64,000 bases of DNA from Escherichia coli. GTDB lineage: Bacteria > Pseudomonadota > Gammaproteobacteria > Enterobacterales > Enterobacteriaceae. Each line of letters opens with the position of its first letter. Position 1 is the stretch's first letter. Below, piece by piece: positions 18,001 through 21,000 of the stretch. The stretch lies in NCBI RefSeq assembly GCF_048403405.1, contig NZ_CP183129.1. The stretch is one strand, 5' to 3'. Made by a program: the position numbers.

Positions 18001-21000
18001 AAGTACTGGAAGATGCCGGAATAAAAACAACAATAGCCAGTATTCGCGGGGGGCAGCCACCGGTGGATGGATTTGACCTCAGCGACCCTGTTAACGCCTG
18101 GTACTGGAACGAAACCGATTTTCAGCAGCGCCTGGCAACAACACCTGCGTTATCCGAGCTGAAAGGTGCCGATTACAGCGCAGTTTTCTTTGCAGGTGGT
18201 CATGGGACCATGTGGGATTTCCGTGATAATCAGGATGCCCAGCGTATTATCCGCGAAGTGTATGAAAGTGATGGGATTGTCTCAGCCGTCTGCCACGGGC
18301 CTGCGGCATTGGTTGACGCAAAACTCAGTAGCGGCGAATACCTGATAAAAGGGAAAAATGTGGCGGCCTTTACCAACAAGGAAGAGGAAGAAGTTCACAC
18401 AACAGATGTGGTTCCCTTCCTGCTTGAAACCGCACTTCGCGAGCATGGTGCGCTTTATCATGAAGCTCCAAACTGGTCTGAAAACGTGGTTACCGACGAT
18501 CGCCTTATCACGGGGCAGAATCCCGCTTCAGCACATGGGGTTGGTGTGGCGCTGTTAAATGCACTCCGCCGGACAGCTTAATTAATTCATCGTTACTCAC
18601 CTTACTTGGCCGGTTTAAGTCAGCCACGATCCGGCCTTTTTTCAGGAGCTGAATATGAAAACACTACCTCCAGTCGCACTAGGTACATGGTCCTGGGGCA
18701 CAGGCTTTGCCGGCGGCGACACCGTCTTTGGTAATCATCTTTCTGATACTCAGATGGCAGAAGTGTTCACTGCGGCCATGAGTAAGGGCCTCAATCTCTG
18801 GGATACCGCAGCAGTATATGGTATGGGGAGTTCCGAGACTGCGCTGGGAGCATTAGTCCGTCAGTTTCCCCGCGAGAACATAATTTTATCCACCAAATTC
18901 ACGCCGCAGATTGCGGACAAGCAGTCTGCGCAGCCTGTCAGCGATATGCTTGAGGCCAGCCTTGGGCGCCTGGGCGTGGACGCGATTGATATCTACTGGA
19001 TCCATAATCCCCTCGACGTCGAAAAATGGACACCAGGACTGATCCCACTTTTACAAAGCGGTAAGGTAAAACGCGTAGGTGTTTCCAACCACAATCTGGC
19101 ACAAATCAGACGCGCCAATGAAATCCTTAACGCTTCCGGTTATTCCCTCAGTGCAGTACAAAATCACTACAGCCTGCTCTATCGCGCTTCTGAAGAGGCC
19201 GGGATCCTTGATTATTGCCGACAAAATAACATCACGTTCTTTGCTTACATGGTCCTGGAGCAAGGCGCGCTCAGTGGTCGTTATGATTCAAATCATCCCA
19301 TGCCTGCCGGGAGTGGCCGGGCCGAAAGTTATAACGCAGTACTGCCGCAGATAGAAAGACTAACCGCCGCCATGAAAAAAATGGGAGCCGAAAGGAATGC
19401 CAGCGTGGCACAGATAGCCATCGCATGGGCTATTGCGAAAGGTACCCTTCCCCTCGTTGGTGCGACTAAAGTCCATCACGTTCTGGACGCCGCCTGCGCT
19501 TCAGACATCCAGTTACGCGATGAGGAAATCATCCTGCTGGAACAACTCGCCGCAGAGACCAGAGTGGATACACGAGGCGCCTGGGAAAAACCGATGGTGT
19601 AAAGCCCGTCCGGAACAGACTGTCATGAATGACACACACGAACGGGCTGTTCCGGGTGATTCTAATCTGTATCACTTTTACTGCTTTGTATGAATGGTGA
19701 GAATATGAAAATCATTTGCCTCGAAGAACATTATCTCGACAGCGAGTTAGGGCGAGCGTGTATGCCTGTTGCGCTTGAGCAGGCACCTTTCCTTGGCGAC
19801 TGGGGGAAAACCGTCGCTGATGGTCATAATCCTGACCGACTCCCTGCTTTCCCGCTTTAATAAACTGAATGTGCCACTCTATCTTCATCCCGGGTTACCG
19901 CTTAAAAGCGTACAGCAGGCCTACTTCACGGGCTTCAGCGCAGAGGTCAACGCCAGGCTTTCTATGTTTGCCTGGGGCTGGCATCACGAAGCGGGGATCC
20001 ATTTGTTGCGGCTGATGTTATCGGGCGCATTTGATAAATATCCCAACCTGCAGGTAATCAGTGGCCACTGGGGGGAGATGTTACCCTTCTGGCTCCAGCG
20101 TCTTGATGACAGCCTACCACTGGCTGCAACGGGTCTGTCACGCACGCTAACGAGAACCTTCCAGGAACACGTTTACGTTACCCCGTCATATGCTAACACT
20201 GCCGCACTTCCAGTTTATCTACGCGTTAATGGGTGCTGAAAGGATCCTGTTCTCCGTCGATTATCCCTATCAGACCCTGGACGGTGTAAAAACCTTTATA
20301 GACAGTCTGCCCGTCAACAAGGCTGAAAAAGAGGCCATCGCGTTTCGCAATGCAGAACGTTTACTGGGCATCACGGTTTAGTTCACCGTTTCATGATGAT
20401 TGAGCACATTGTGATCAGCCGACAATTATTAGTTTTTGCCTAAAAGTGAATGAGCCTTTACTGCTCTAAAAAAATAATGTTGTCACTCTATACTGGATTT
20501 AATATTCACCAAAGATGTTTAACTGATTGAAATGAAAAATATCCTTGTTATTTCAGGTCATCCTGAGCTTACCCATTCCGTCGCCAATGCCACTATTCTT
20601 GATGAAGTGGAGACCGCCCTTCCCGATGTTGAGATTCGTCGTCTGGACAGGCTCTATCCGGATGGCAAATTCAACATCGCGGCGGAGCAGGAAAGCCTGC
20701 TCAGGGCCGATGTGATTGTCTGGCAGTTCCCTTTTTCCTGGTATGGGCTGCCAGGATTAATGAAAAAATGGCTGGACGAGGTCTTTGTTCACGGCTTCGC
20801 GCATGGCTCAACGGCGAAACTGGGCGGTAAAAAGCTGATCCTCTCCTTTACAACGGGAGCGCCAGAGGAGCTCTATACCGTCGACAGTTTCTTTGGCCAT
20901 ACCATTGAAGAGTATCTAATTCCGTTCGAGACCACAGCAAAACTGTGCAATCTTGAGCTGCTGGAGCCGGTTTATACCTGCGGTATCAGCTATGCCGATC

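What the first reader, a model, noticed from the sequence alone, without database searches (positions are those of the whole stretch)
19603..20381. Frameshift-disrupted amidohydrolase gene preceded by overlapping inverted repeats
The amidohydrolase-2-like coding sequence is spread over three frames (fragments from 19704, 19769 and 20190), indicating at least two frameshifts or an internal deletion. Just upstream, the segment around 19605-19655 contains two interleaved inverted repeats (AGCCCGT...ACGGGCT and CCGGAACAG...CTGTTCCGG) that cannot both form at once. This could be alternative RNA structures or a repeat-element remnant.
Basis: seen in the sequence. Interest (0 to 1): 0.35.

Follow-up and report, generated by a model that had tools for sequence, protein, structure and literature searches.

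The report
Dead decarboxylase gene plus intergenic hairpin
This is an ordinary dead gene: an E. coli accessory-island copy of a metal-dependent decarboxylase-type amidohydrolase destroyed by a 356-bp deletion and a later 2-bp deletion, preceded by one conserved hairpin between genes; the second "interleaved" repeat is most likely an accident of this allele.

Summary
Window 19705-20381 holds the remains of a PF04909 (Amidohydro_2) gene read in three frames. Intact syntenic homologues are 344-349 aa.

- **Lesions.** Alignment shows exactly two: a 356-bp out-of-frame deletion (junction 19837|GA|19840, between imperfect direct repeats) and a 2-bp GG deletion (20188|20189).
- **Distribution.** All seven deleted alleles read at base level share the junction, and the deleted segment has no match in 5,426 complete E. 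coli genomes. The 2-bp lesion is later and missing in some alleles. Other alleles carry further damage.
- **Not an artefact.** Seven complete genomes are 100% identical over 19500-20500.
- **Active site.** The three metal-ligand positions (Glu/His, His, Asp) now lie in three different frames.
- **Repeats.** Both upstream inverted repeats exist and exclude each other. CCGGAACAG/CTGTTCCGG is kept in all 11 distinct homologous spacers and dominates the fold (P about 0.99). In Rouxiella, Pantoea and one metagenome allele it is part of a longer, far stronger hairpin (z -4.7 to -7.7). AGCCCGT/ACGGGCT is not conserved (71% paired, no compensation, P 0.005).
- **What the hairpin is not.** It is single-copy, has no U-tract and matches no Rfam family, so it is an intercistronic stem-loop of untested role.

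Low interest. The same island also lost a LysR regulator segment and two downstream genes.

The parts
18655..19602 (+). Upstream aldo/keto reductase gene (315 aa), intact. Its TAA stop at 19600-19602 lies 4-7 nt before the hairpin.
   Evidence: ORF list; RefSeq annotation of the identical locus in strain TUM14771.
19607..19658 (+). Conserved intercistronic hairpin ('stem B'). Core arms are CCGGAACAG 19610-19618 and CTGTTCCGG 19647-19655. Wobble and GC pairs extend it to 19607/19658.
   Evidence: Minimum-free-energy fold and pair probabilities of 0.93-0.995. 92% of cells are paired across 11 distinct homologous spacers, with GU/AU/GC switches at two pairs. Orthologous versions fold as longer hairpins with z -4.7 to -7.7.
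19621..19634 (+). Inner palindrome TGTCAT-GA-ATGACA at the tip of the hairpin. Nine of its 14 columns are invariant, and 9 of the 11 variants carry the identical 14-mer.
   Evidence: No similar site was found in the LysR-side divergent promoter region 17440-17570.
19603..19648 (+). 'Stem A': AGCCCGT 19603-19609 and ACGGGCT 19642-19648. It competes with stem B. It is perfect in the E. coli-type spacer shared by the window, KY1497, L006-L008 and L046, and imperfect in the other ten distinct variants compared.
   Evidence: Ensemble probability 0.005. 71% paired, 4 of 7 pairs depart only by unpaired cells, and no compensatory change. Its 3' arm is a mutated piece of the long hairpin's 3' arm: ACAGTCTGT in L039 against ACGGGCTGT here.
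19696..19707 (+). Shine-Dalgarno-like GGTGAG (19696-19701) and the ATG at 19705 that matches the start of the 344-aa homologues (MKIICLEEH).
   Evidence: Sequence; homologue N-termini; RefSeq CDS start.
19705..19860 (+). Fragment 1 (frame 1): residues 1-45 of the ancestral protein, including the E-E-H metal-binding motif (E7 at 19723-19725, H9 at 19729-19731). Six out-of-frame codons and a TAA follow.
19837..19840 (+). Junction of the 356-bp deletion (CCTGACC|GA|CTCCC), with 2 bp of microhomology. It removes residues about 46-163 of the 344-aa protein and shifts the frame by +1. The imperfect direct repeats TCATAATCCTGACCGA and TCATCCTGACTATGA flank it in intact genes.
   Evidence: Alignment to three intact syntenic genes. 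Length tally 1019 against 663 or 661 nt.
19840..20239 (+). Fragment 2 (frame 2): residues about 164-280, including the metal-binding His of LYLHPG (19886-19888). It then runs out of frame to a TGA at 20237-20239.
   Evidence: Pfam PF04909 35.7 bits, profile positions 128-192. The His aligns with LigW His188.
20188..20189 (+). Site of the 2-bp (GG) deletion: CCGTCA^TATGCT here against CCGTCAGGTATGCT in intact genes and in E. coli KY1497.
20189..20381 (+). Fragment 3 (frame 0): the C-terminal ~64 residues, including the catalytic and metal-binding Asp of SVDYPY (20259-20261). The stop is at 20379-20381.
   Evidence: Pfam PF04909 32.3 bits, profile positions 227-289. The Asp aligns with LigW Asp314.
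20532..21104 (+). Next gene of the cluster, a Flavodoxin_2-type NAD(P)H oxidoreductase. It is intact.

Best explanation
Window 19705-20381 is a pseudogene. It is the remnant of a 344-aa PF04909 (Amidohydro_2) enzyme whose closest solved relatives are metal-dependent non-oxidative aromatic-acid decarboxylases (LigW, gamma-resorcylate and 2,3-dihydroxybenzoate decarboxylases).

**Setting.** The gene sits in a LysR-linked accessory cluster: a 101-aa protein, DJ-1/PfpI, an aldo/keto reductase (AKR), the amidohydrolase, Flavodoxin_2, a second AKR, an ABM-domain (PF03992) monooxygenase and a CMD-domain (PF02627, carboxymuconolactone decarboxylase family) protein. The cluster lies next to hipBA in about 9% of complete E. 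coli genomes.

**Order of events.**
- Shown: one 356-bp deletion removed about 118 codons of the TIM barrel and shifted the frame.
- Inferred: that deletion arose by slippage or short-homology recombination between the imperfect direct repeats TCATAATCCTGACCGA and TCATCCTGACTATGA.
- Shown: a 2-bp deletion came later, and different lineages carry further damage.
- Consequence: the metal ligands are now spread over three frames, and no product can form the active site.

**The 102-nt spacer upstream.** It carries one genuine conserved element, a hairpin that starts 4-7 nt after the AKR stop codon. In related bacteria this hairpin is longer and more stable.
- Inferred, not shown: it acts on the polycistronic mRNA as an intercistronic stem-loop, either as a barrier to 3' exonucleases or as a weak U-tract-less pause or termination point that uncouples the upstream genes from the downstream ones.
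- Inferred from shown conservation and fold data: the second, interleaved repeat is an accident of two substitutions in the E. coli-type allele and does not form.
For: **Pseudogene.**
- The three frames are seen. PF04909 hits fragments 2 and 3.
- Intact 344-349 aa homologues have 85-93% identity. They sit in the same gene order in metagenome contigs and in Serratia ficaria, and match at DNA level along the cluster in Rahnella, Pantoea and Rouxiella.
- Base-level alignment gives exactly one 356-bp gap and one 2-bp gap.
- The deleted 356 bp has no hit in 5,426 complete E. coli genomes. The remnant is present in 472 of them.
- Independent extra lesions occur: a +1 C, a 26-bp inverted duplication, a further 91-bp deletion, and an independent 5' deletion in L039.
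- Ligand positions are mutated in some alleles: H9N in KY1497 and D305G in CFSAN061763.
- pN/pS is 0.06-0.30 among intact genes (mostly 0.1-0.16), against 0.2-0.6 among E. coli remnants. The remnants have 10 non-synonymous and 8 synonymous polymorphic codons.

**Hairpin.**
- Searches give the fold and pair probabilities.
- Searches give 92% pairing in 11 variants.
- One search shows orthologues folding at z -4.7, -5.5 and -7.7.
- One search shows Pantoea deserta keeps stem B, with a G-C in place of G-U, while it lacks the 3' arm of stem A.
Against: **Pseudogene.** No expression or activity data were available. The rise in pN/pS rests on about 18 polymorphic codons, and some of those may have arrived by recombination. 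In KY1497-type alleles a 187-aa C-terminal ORF survives, and I cannot formally exclude that it is translated.

**Hairpin.**
- Formal covariation is weak. No pair is scored as changed on both sides, and the shuffle controls are not exceeded, because the sequences are 88-94% identical.
- The full 109-nt spacer is not unusually stable (z -1.2).
- No U-tract or promoter was detected.
- The proposed RNA role is inferred from position alone.
Confidence: 0.85

Rival explanations
1. The frame breaks are sequencing or assembly errors, and the real gene is intact.
For: Short indels in homopolymers are a common error type. The finding comes from a single window.
Against: Seven complete genomes are 100% identical over 19500-20500, and 462 genomes cover at least 80% of it. 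The 356-bp segment is absent from all 5,426 complete E. coli genomes. The same junction appears in 19 metagenome contigs. The 2-bp site is not a homopolymer run and is shared by several divergent alleles.
Confidence: 0.01
2. The gene is still functional through programmed frameshifting, or as a split multi-subunit enzyme.
For: RefSeq (PGAP) annotates the three pieces as ordinary CDSs, not as a pseudogene. The Glu/His, His and Asp ligand codons all survive.
Against: About 118 residues of the barrel are physically missing, and no frameshifting can restore them. Alleles accumulate different extra lesions, including substitutions at ligand positions. Every intact relative is a single 344-349 aa chain.
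Confidence: 0.02
3. The two interleaved inverted repeats are a two-state RNA switch, of attenuator or riboswitch type, that controls the downstream genes.
For: The two helices are mutually exclusive, and they lie in a 5' leader-like spacer 50-100 nt before the start codon. With stem A enforced, the best fold is only 3.1 kcal/mol worse (-19.9 against -23.0).
Against: Stem A has ensemble probability 0.005. It is 71% paired, with 4 of 7 pairs departing only by unpaired cells and no compensatory change. It is perfect only in the E. coli-type allele, and its 3' arm is deleted in Pantoea deserta, which keeps stem B. There is no Rfam match, no terminator-like U-tract, and no leader peptide or ligand-binding-like conserved core.
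Confidence: 0.03
4. The hairpin is a remnant of a dispersed repeat element (REP/BIME-like unit, MITE or insertion-sequence end).
For: It is a long, imperfect palindrome placed just after a stop codon, as REP units are (own knowledge). In Rouxiella it is a 24-bp near-perfect hairpin.
Against: There is exactly one copy per genome in 465 E. coli genomes, even with an 11-nt-word BLAST search. In 241 million metagenome records the 20-nt core occurs with homologous flanks only in this same AKR/amidohydrolase context; the other hits share no flank. No target-site duplication or second copy exists in the window.
Confidence: 0.05
5. The conserved palindrome is a DNA operator for a transcription factor driving an internal promoter, not an RNA structure.
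For: The inner palindrome TGTCAT-GA-ATGACA is conserved by sequence: 9 of its 14 columns are invariant and 9 of the 11 variants carry the identical 14-mer. The cluster has a divergent LysR regulator.
Against: No sigma-70-like promoter was found in 19300-20700. No similar palindrome occurs in the LysR divergent promoter region. The outer arms change in pair-preserving ways (GU/AU/GC; G-C to A-U in Rouxiella if the gap is shifted by one column), and the inner pairing register differs between orthologues while the hairpin is kept. That pattern fits a structure better than a sequence-specific site.
Confidence: 0.08
6. The hairpin has no function, and its conservation only reflects the short divergence time of a horizontally spreading island.
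For: The compared islands are 86-94% identical overall. The shuffle controls for covariation are not exceeded. The E. coli-type version has a degraded inner stem.
Against: Variation is concentrated in the loop (alignment columns 40-51), while the arms and the tip stay almost invariant. A 10-nt loop deletion in Pantoea deserta leaves the hairpin intact with a strengthening change. Three orthologues fold 4.7-7.7 sd better than shuffles.
Confidence: 0.25

Closest known systems
Metal-dependent non-oxidative decarboxylases of the amidohydrolase superfamily (PF04909): LigW 5-carboxyvanillate decarboxylase (PDB 4INF/4QRN), gamma-resorcylate decarboxylase (3S4T/4QRO, 2DVT), 2,3-dihydroxybenzoate decarboxylase (6M53). 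The closest solved relative is the uncharacterised amidohydrolase 3NUR.
   Same: The intact homologue P0001 matches 3NUR over residues 7-348 (E 1e-68). P0003 matches LigW, 2,3-DHBD and gamma-RSD at E 5e-46 to 2e-41. The N-terminal E-E-H motif, the His of LYLHPG and the Asp of (S/A)DYPY correspond to the published metal ligands (LigW Glu19/His188/Asp314; gamma-RSD Glu8/His10/His164/Asp287; PMC8187880). The His and the Asp are aligned directly with LigW. The E-E-H correspondence rests on the motif and on the 3NUR alignment.
   Different: The window copy lacks about 118 of 344 residues and is read in three frames, so it is not an enzyme. The substrate of the intact protein is unknown: no NCBIfam model names it, and the closest structure has no assigned function.
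Bacterial pseudogenes formed by short-repeat-mediated deletion followed by small indels (generic gene decay in accessory islands)
   Same: There is an out-of-frame internal deletion between short imperfect direct repeats. Secondary indels follow. Different alleles carry different lesions, and neighbouring genes of the same island are also deleted.
   Different: Nothing unusual. The only practical point is that RefSeq lists the three fragments as separate protein-coding genes (WP_001327998.1, WP_001327999.1, WP_001469139.1) instead of one pseudogene.
Intercistronic mRNA stem-loops, i.e. REP-type stabilisers placed after stop codons in enterobacterial operons (own knowledge, e.g. the malE-malF REP)
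   Same: It is a stable hairpin that starts a few nucleotides after a stop codon inside an operon, with no U-tract.
   Different: It is single-copy and not a member of a dispersed family. No experimental evidence for a stabilising role exists here.
Rho-independent (intrinsic) terminators
   Same: A GC-containing stem of 9-12 bp lies directly downstream of a gene.
   Different: The loop is 28 nt between the core arms (terminators usually have 3-8). The stem is followed by GAUUCUAAUCU, not a U-run, and the scan does not call it. By contrast, the DJ-1/AKR spacer of the same cluster has a hairpin followed by U6.

Membership tests
Pfam PF04909 Amidohydro_2 | The sequence scores above the curated gathering threshold of the family HMM. 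| tested here: met
   Fragment 2 scores 35.7 bits and fragment 3 scores 32.3 bits against a cut-off of 26.4. The intact homologue P0003 scores 109 bits.
Pfam PF04909 Amidohydro_2 | A complete (beta/alpha)8 barrel domain of about 290 profile positions in one polypeptide. | tested here: not met
   Only profile positions 128-192 and 227-289 are matched, and they lie in different frames. 356 bp, about 118 codons, are missing relative to all intact homologues.
Metal-dependent non-oxidative decarboxylases (LigW / gamma-RSD / 2,3-DHBD group) | Metal ligands: an N-terminal Glu (with or without His), a His after beta-strand 5, and the catalytic Asp after beta-strand 8. | tested here: inconclusive
   All of these codons exist (E7/H9 at 19723-19731, His at 19886-19888, Asp at 20259-20261), and the His and Asp align with LigW His188 and Asp314. 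They lie in frames 1, 2 and 0, so no product carries them together. Some alleles have H9N or D305G.
Metal-dependent non-oxidative decarboxylases (LigW / gamma-RSD / 2,3-DHBD group) | Decarboxylase activity on a hydroxy-aromatic acid. | not testable with these tools
   No NCBIfam equivalog matches the intact homologue. The closest structure, 3NUR, is uncharacterised.
Pseudogene | Intact full-length orthologues exist in the same gene context. | tested here: met
   Genes of 344-349 aa sit between the same AKR and Flavodoxin_2 genes in L006-L009. L011, L012 and L014 match the window at DNA level on both sides of the gene.
Pseudogene | The disruption is a real, heritable lesion and not a sequencing artefact. 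| tested here: met
Pseudogene | Relaxed selection after inactivation. | tested here: inconclusive
   pN/pS is 0.2-0.6 among remnants against 0.06-0.30 among intact genes, but on few sites. Qualitative support comes from the piling-up of independent lesions.
Intrinsic terminator | A GC-rich stem with a short loop, followed immediately by a U-tract. | tested here: not met
   The terminator scan does not call 19607-19658, and the tail is GAUUCUAAUCU.
Dispersed repeat element (REP/BIME, MITE) | Multiple copies per genome in unrelated contexts. | tested here: not met
   There is one place per genome in 465 genomes. Metagenome hits with homologous flanks occur only in this context.
Two-state RNA switch or known cis-regulatory RNA | Both alternative helices are conserved, or the sequence matches a curated RNA family. 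| tested here: not met
   Stem A is 71% paired with no compensation and has P = 0.005. No Rfam hit overlaps the 19603-19662 element even at E <= 10.
Conserved RNA hairpin | Pairing is maintained across homologues with pair-preserving substitutions. | tested here: inconclusive
   92% of cells are paired. Pairs 13-62 and 19-56 show GU/GC/AU states. No strict double-sided change was scored, and the shuffle controls were not exceeded. Orthologous sequences fold far better than shuffles.

The most novel reading that the evidence does not exclude
The single-copy hairpin just after the AKR stop codon (19607-19658; up to 24 bp in Rouxiella) may be a dedicated, previously undescribed cis-acting RNA element. 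It would set the expression ratio between the first three genes and the rest of this LysR-linked redox/aromatic-detoxification cluster, for example as a U-tract-less, factor-dependent termination or RNase-processing site.
Probability: 0.12. Interest if true: 0.25.

Novelty: new member of a known kind. Interest (0 to 1): 0.1.

Why it matters
It matters little biologically.

- **Gene decay.** It is a textbook example of decay in a horizontally acquired E. coli island. The same island in this window also lost 352 bp of its LysR regulator and 954 bp that carried two further genes.
- **Annotation.** RefSeq lists the three pieces as separate protein-coding genes in hundreds of genomes. They should be one pseudogene. 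The 356-bp junction is a clean marker for this island lineage.
- **Hairpin.** It is a modest lead for anyone studying intercistronic RNA structures. The Rouxiella, Pantoea or metagenome versions would be better subjects than the weakened E. coli-type one.

Tried and rejected
1. **Rfam scan** of 19400-20600 at E <= 10. It gave only three sub-threshold chance hits (a Mycobacterium sRNA and two snoRNAs) and none over the hairpin.
2. **Promoter and terminator scan** of 19300-20700. It found no promoter, and the hairpin was not called as a terminator.
3. **Second copies in the window.** I searched for the inner palindrome or the outer arms elsewhere, including the LysR divergent promoter region. 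Only chance-level near matches turned up.
4. **First dN/dS run.** MAFFT misplaced the 356-bp gap and inflated the differences. I discarded it and redid the count with the gap fixed by hand.
5. **Exact-sequence contig look-ups.** Those for P0006 and P0009 found nothing.
6. **Recurrent deletion at a hot spot.** I considered this because the divergent metagenome allele L031 has the identical junction. I rejected it. L031 is L010-like at 50 of 57 informative sites. Six of the seven window-like sites form one contiguous patch at and just after the junction. That pattern fits recombination, or a chimeric assembly, not an independent event.
7. **A second downstream hairpin** (GTGAT...ATCAC + UUUUAC) as a possible terminator. 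I rejected it because its pairs break in Serratia and Rahnella.
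Full report
**1. Where we are**

The window is an Escherichia coli chromosome. Region 19500-20500 is 100% identical to seven complete genomes (TUM14771, GN02461, MS 69-1 and others) and is present in 472 of 5,426 complete E. coli genomes, once per genome as a rule.

In RefSeq the locus is part of an accessory cluster next to hipBA. Its gene order is:
- a LysR regulator (divergent)
- a 101-aa protein
- a DJ-1/PfpI protein
- an aldo/keto reductase, AKR (window 18655-19602)
- three small CDSs: a 'hypothetical protein' and two 'amidohydrolase family protein'
- a Flavodoxin_2-type NAD(P)H oxidoreductase (20532-21104)
- a second AKR
- an ABM-domain quinol monooxygenase
- a CMD-family protein

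**2. Checking the observation**

The ORF list confirms three pieces in three frames:
- 19705-19860 in frame 1, with an upstream in-frame ATG at 19690
- 19769-20239 in frame 2
- 20190-20381 in frame 0

Pieces 2 and 3 each pass the Pfam gathering score for PF04909. They cover profile positions 128-192 and 227-289 of 289.

Their order is A-B...A'-B', and the 3' arms share two bases. They therefore cannot form together.

**3. What happened to the gene**

A protein search with the stitched fragments returned thousands of PF04909 proteins. The closest are 344-349 aa and 85-93% identical.

Contigs encoding three of these (L006-L008) and the Serratia ficaria contig L009 carry the same gene order as the window. 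A genome scan added intact copies in Rahnella rivi, Pantoea deserta, Pantoea gossypiicola, Rouxiella aceris, Serratia plymuthica and Serratia inhibens.

Base-level alignment of the window with three intact genes and with E. coli KY1497 shows exactly two lesions.

(a) *A 356-bp gap.* Intact ...CATAATCCTGACCGA|AGCCGG...(356 bp)...CATCCTGACTATGA|CTCCCTG becomes CATAATCCTGACCGACTCCCTG in the window.
- The junction is 19837|GA|19840, with 2 bp of microhomology.
- The breakpoints lie at the ends of an imperfect direct repeat, TCATAATCCTGACCGA / TCATCCTGACTATGA. This is the usual signature of slippage or short-homology deletion (an inference).
- Since 356 = 3x118 + 2, the frame moves from 1 to 2.

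(b) *A 2-bp gap.* CCGTCAGGTATGCT becomes CCGTCATATGCT between 20188 and 20189, which moves the frame from 2 to 0.

A length tally over all loci gives 1019 nt (start motif to end motif) for intact genes, 663 for deletion-only alleles and 661 for the window type.

**4. How widespread and how old**

The 356-bp segment taken from an intact gene has no megablast hit in any of the 5,426 complete E. coli genomes. The intact gene is therefore absent from that collection. All seven deleted alleles read at base level (the window and L001-L005 from E. coli, plus the mis-binned contig L019) and 19 metagenome contigs share the junction.

The 2-bp lesion is younger. KY1497 and the metagenome contigs L031, L032 and L058 have the 356-bp deletion but keep GG. 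About 12 of 60 evenly spaced E. coli records look like KY1497 by identity and annotation, but only KY1497 was checked at the sequence level.

Further lineage-specific damage is present:
- an extra C in CFSAN061763
- a 26-bp inverted duplication in S1-ZIM-01-A
- a further 91-bp deletion in L058
- records that keep only part of the region
- in the divergent metagenome allele L039, an independent deletion that removes the start codon and most of the gene; blastn homology resumes only at window 20372

These facts exclude an assembly error and show continuing decay.

**5. What the gene was**

The intact homologue matches the uncharacterised amidohydrolase 3NUR over nearly its full length (E 1e-68). 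It then matches LigW, 2,3-dihydroxybenzoate decarboxylase, gamma-resorcylate decarboxylase and salicylate decarboxylase. ACMSD and iso-orotate decarboxylase follow far behind.

The published metal ligands are Glu19/His188/Asp314 in LigW and Glu8/His10/His164/Asp287 in gamma-RSD (PMC8187880). HMMER aligns LigW His188 with the His of LYLHPG and Asp314 with the Asp of (S/A)DYPY. The N-terminal LEEH corresponds to the Glu/His pair.

In the window these codons sit at:
- 19723-19731 (frame 1)
- 19886-19888 (frame 2)
- 20259-20261 (frame 0)

One active site is thus split over three reading frames, and about 118 barrel residues are gone. No NCBIfam model names the intact protein, so its substrate is unknown.

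**6. Selection**

With the gap placed by hand, pN/pS between intact genes over the retained 675 nt is 0.06-0.30, mostly 0.1-0.16. Among five E. coli remnants it is 0.2-0.6, with 10 non-synonymous and 8 synonymous polymorphic codons.

The polymorphisms include H9N (the ligand His, in KY1497), D305G (the ligand Asp, in CFSAN061763) and W33R. The counts are small. This fits relaxed constraint but does not prove it.

**7. The inverted repeats**

*Thermodynamics.*
- Stem B alone is -13.9 kcal/mol, -15.5 when extended to 12 bp, and -19.3 with the inner hairpin. Stem A alone is -9.7.
- The best fold containing B is -23.0 and the best containing A is -19.9.
- Ensemble pair probabilities are 0.93-0.995 for B and 0.005 for A.
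- The 60-nt element alone has z = -2.3. The whole spacer has z = -1.2.

*Conservation.* I collected every homologous spacer I could. Some came from protein-anchored loci. Others came from a metagenome scan with the 20-nt core. That scan gave 49 hits. 26 are homologous and all lie in the same 'AKR stop / amidohydrolase start' context. The other 23 are unrelated sequences with no flank similarity.

Eleven distinct variants were aligned.
- Stem B plus the inner hairpin is 93.5% paired. Pair 19-56 is GU:9, AU:1, GC:1. Pair 13-62 is GU:4, GC:3, AU:2.
- In Rouxiella, CCGG/CCGG has become CCAG/CTGG. This is a G-C to A-U double change, hidden in the count by a one-column gap placement.
- Stem A is 70.8% paired. 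Four of its seven pairs depart only by unpaired cells, and no change is compensated.
- RNAalifold independently returns stem B plus the inner hairpin as the consensus.
- The shuffle controls are not exceeded, because variation is low. Formal covariation support is therefore weak.

*Orthologous folds.* These are the most informative result. Each folds as one long hairpin:

| Source | MFE (kcal/mol) | z-score | Note |
|---|---|---|---|
| Rouxiella (L014) | -38.6 | -7.7 | 24 bp |
| Metagenome allele L039 | -29.7 | -5.5 | |
| Pantoea deserta (L012) | -21.3 | -4.7 | 10-nt loop deletion removes the 3' arm of stem A |

Comparing L039 (ACAGTCTGTTCCGG) with the window (ACGGGCTGTTCCGG) shows that two substitutions in the E. 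coli-type allele weakened the inner part of the long hairpin. The same two substitutions created, by accident, the complement of AGCCCGT.

So there is one real element, a hairpin starting 4-7 nt after the AKR stop. 'Stem A' is a by-product.

**8. What the hairpin is not**

- *Not a dispersed repeat.* There is exactly one place per genome in 465 genomes with a sensitive BLAST search, and no other context in metagenomes.
- *Not a known RNA family*.
- *Not a canonical intrinsic terminator.* It has a 28-nt loop and no U-tract, and the scan does not call it.
- *Not obviously an operator.* No promoter lies nearby, and no related site occurs in the LysR-side promoter.

The hairpin travels with the AKR 3' end. 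Loci where the amidohydrolase has another upstream neighbour lack it (Pantoea gossypiicola, Serratia plymuthica, Serratia inhibens).

My best inference is an intercistronic mRNA stem-loop acting as a 3'-exonuclease barrier or a weak pause or termination point. This rests on position and analogy only.

**9. Context**

The island is decaying as a whole.
- Relative to intact clusters, the window lacks 954 bp at 22138|22139. That segment carried a DUF1330 gene and most of a second Flavodoxin_2 gene.
- Relative even to the otherwise identical TUM14771, the window lacks 352 bp inside the LysR regulator at 17057|17058. This leaves a 143-aa HTH-only ORF.
- All 25 best complete-genome matches carry the extra 352 bp, so that lesion is private to this strain or a very close lineage.

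**10. Verdict**

The gene interpretation is supported and made exact: one 356-bp deletion plus one 2-bp deletion, which is a true pseudogene. The 'alternative structures or repeat remnant' interpretation is not supported, although one of the two repeats is a genuine conserved hairpin. The finding is ordinary and of low interest.

Noticed in passing
window 17005-17436 (- strand); junction 17057|17058: The LysR regulator of the island carries a 352-bp internal deletion. This leaves a 143-aa ORF with the HTH domain and only 38 residues of the substrate-binding domain. TUM14771, which is 100% identical over 19500-20500, and all 25 best complete-genome matches have the full 299-aa gene, so the lesion looks private to this strain.
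   Followed up: partly
window 22138|22139: A 954-bp deletion relative to intact clusters (L006, Serratia ficaria L009). It removes a DUF1330 gene and most of a second Flavodoxin_2 gene. About 95 nt of that gene's 3' end survive at about 22139-22235. The RefSeq E. coli locus L001 shows the same gene order.
   Followed up: partly
window 18608-18642: The DJ-1/AKR spacer has a terminator-like hairpin, GGCCGG-17 nt-CCGGCC, followed by UUUUUU just before the AKR Shine-Dalgarno sequence. The cluster may therefore carry several intercistronic structures.
   Followed up: no
L004 (E. coli S1-ZIM-01-A), alignment A1 columns 631-656: A 26-bp insertion, GTGCGGCAGTGTTAGCATATGACGGG, is the reverse complement of the sequence a few bases upstream (an inverted duplication) inside the pseudogene.
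   Followed up: no
L031 (metagenome contig OKVR01000340.1), around the deletion junction: This is a divergent island allele, 91% identical to the window and L010-like at 50 of 57 informative sites. It carries the identical 356-bp junction inside a short patch of six window-type sites. Either homologous recombination transferred the deletion between alleles, or the metagenome assembly is chimeric.
   Followed up: partly
L039 (metagenome contig ERZ772884.3607), about 3260-3375: An independent, different deletion in a divergent allele removes the amidohydrolase start codon and most of the gene. It keeps the hairpin, which is the most stable near-E. coli version (z -5.5).
   Followed up: partly
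L008 (Logan ERR4045343 contig): This is the intact gene closest to the E. coli remnant (11 differences in 677 nt). It has Asn in place of the metal-binding His (LYLNPG). Its AKR and ABM genes are each split in two, so that island is also decaying.
   Followed up: no
window 19705-20381; RefSeq locus L001 6206-6882: PGAP annotates the three fragments as separate ordinary CDSs (WP_001327998.1 'hypothetical protein', WP_001327999.1 and WP_001469139.1 'amidohydrolase family protein') instead of one pseudogene.
   Followed up: yes
L019 (JAIJJM010000311.1, labelled 'MAG: Collinsella sp.'): A 3.6-kb contig in a Collinsella metagenome-assembled genome carries the E. coli-type deleted allele (661-nt form, 97% identity). 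This is almost certainly a binning contaminant.
   Followed up: no
window ~13000-24000 (island between hipBA and a truncated HTH gene/fimbrial cluster): The whole LysR/DJ-1/AKR/Flavodoxin_2/ABM/CMD cluster is present in only about 9% of complete E. coli genomes. It is 86-94% identical at DNA level to clusters in Serratia, Rahnella, Pantoea and Rouxiella, which suggests horizontal acquisition from plant- or soil-associated Enterobacterales.
   Followed up: partly
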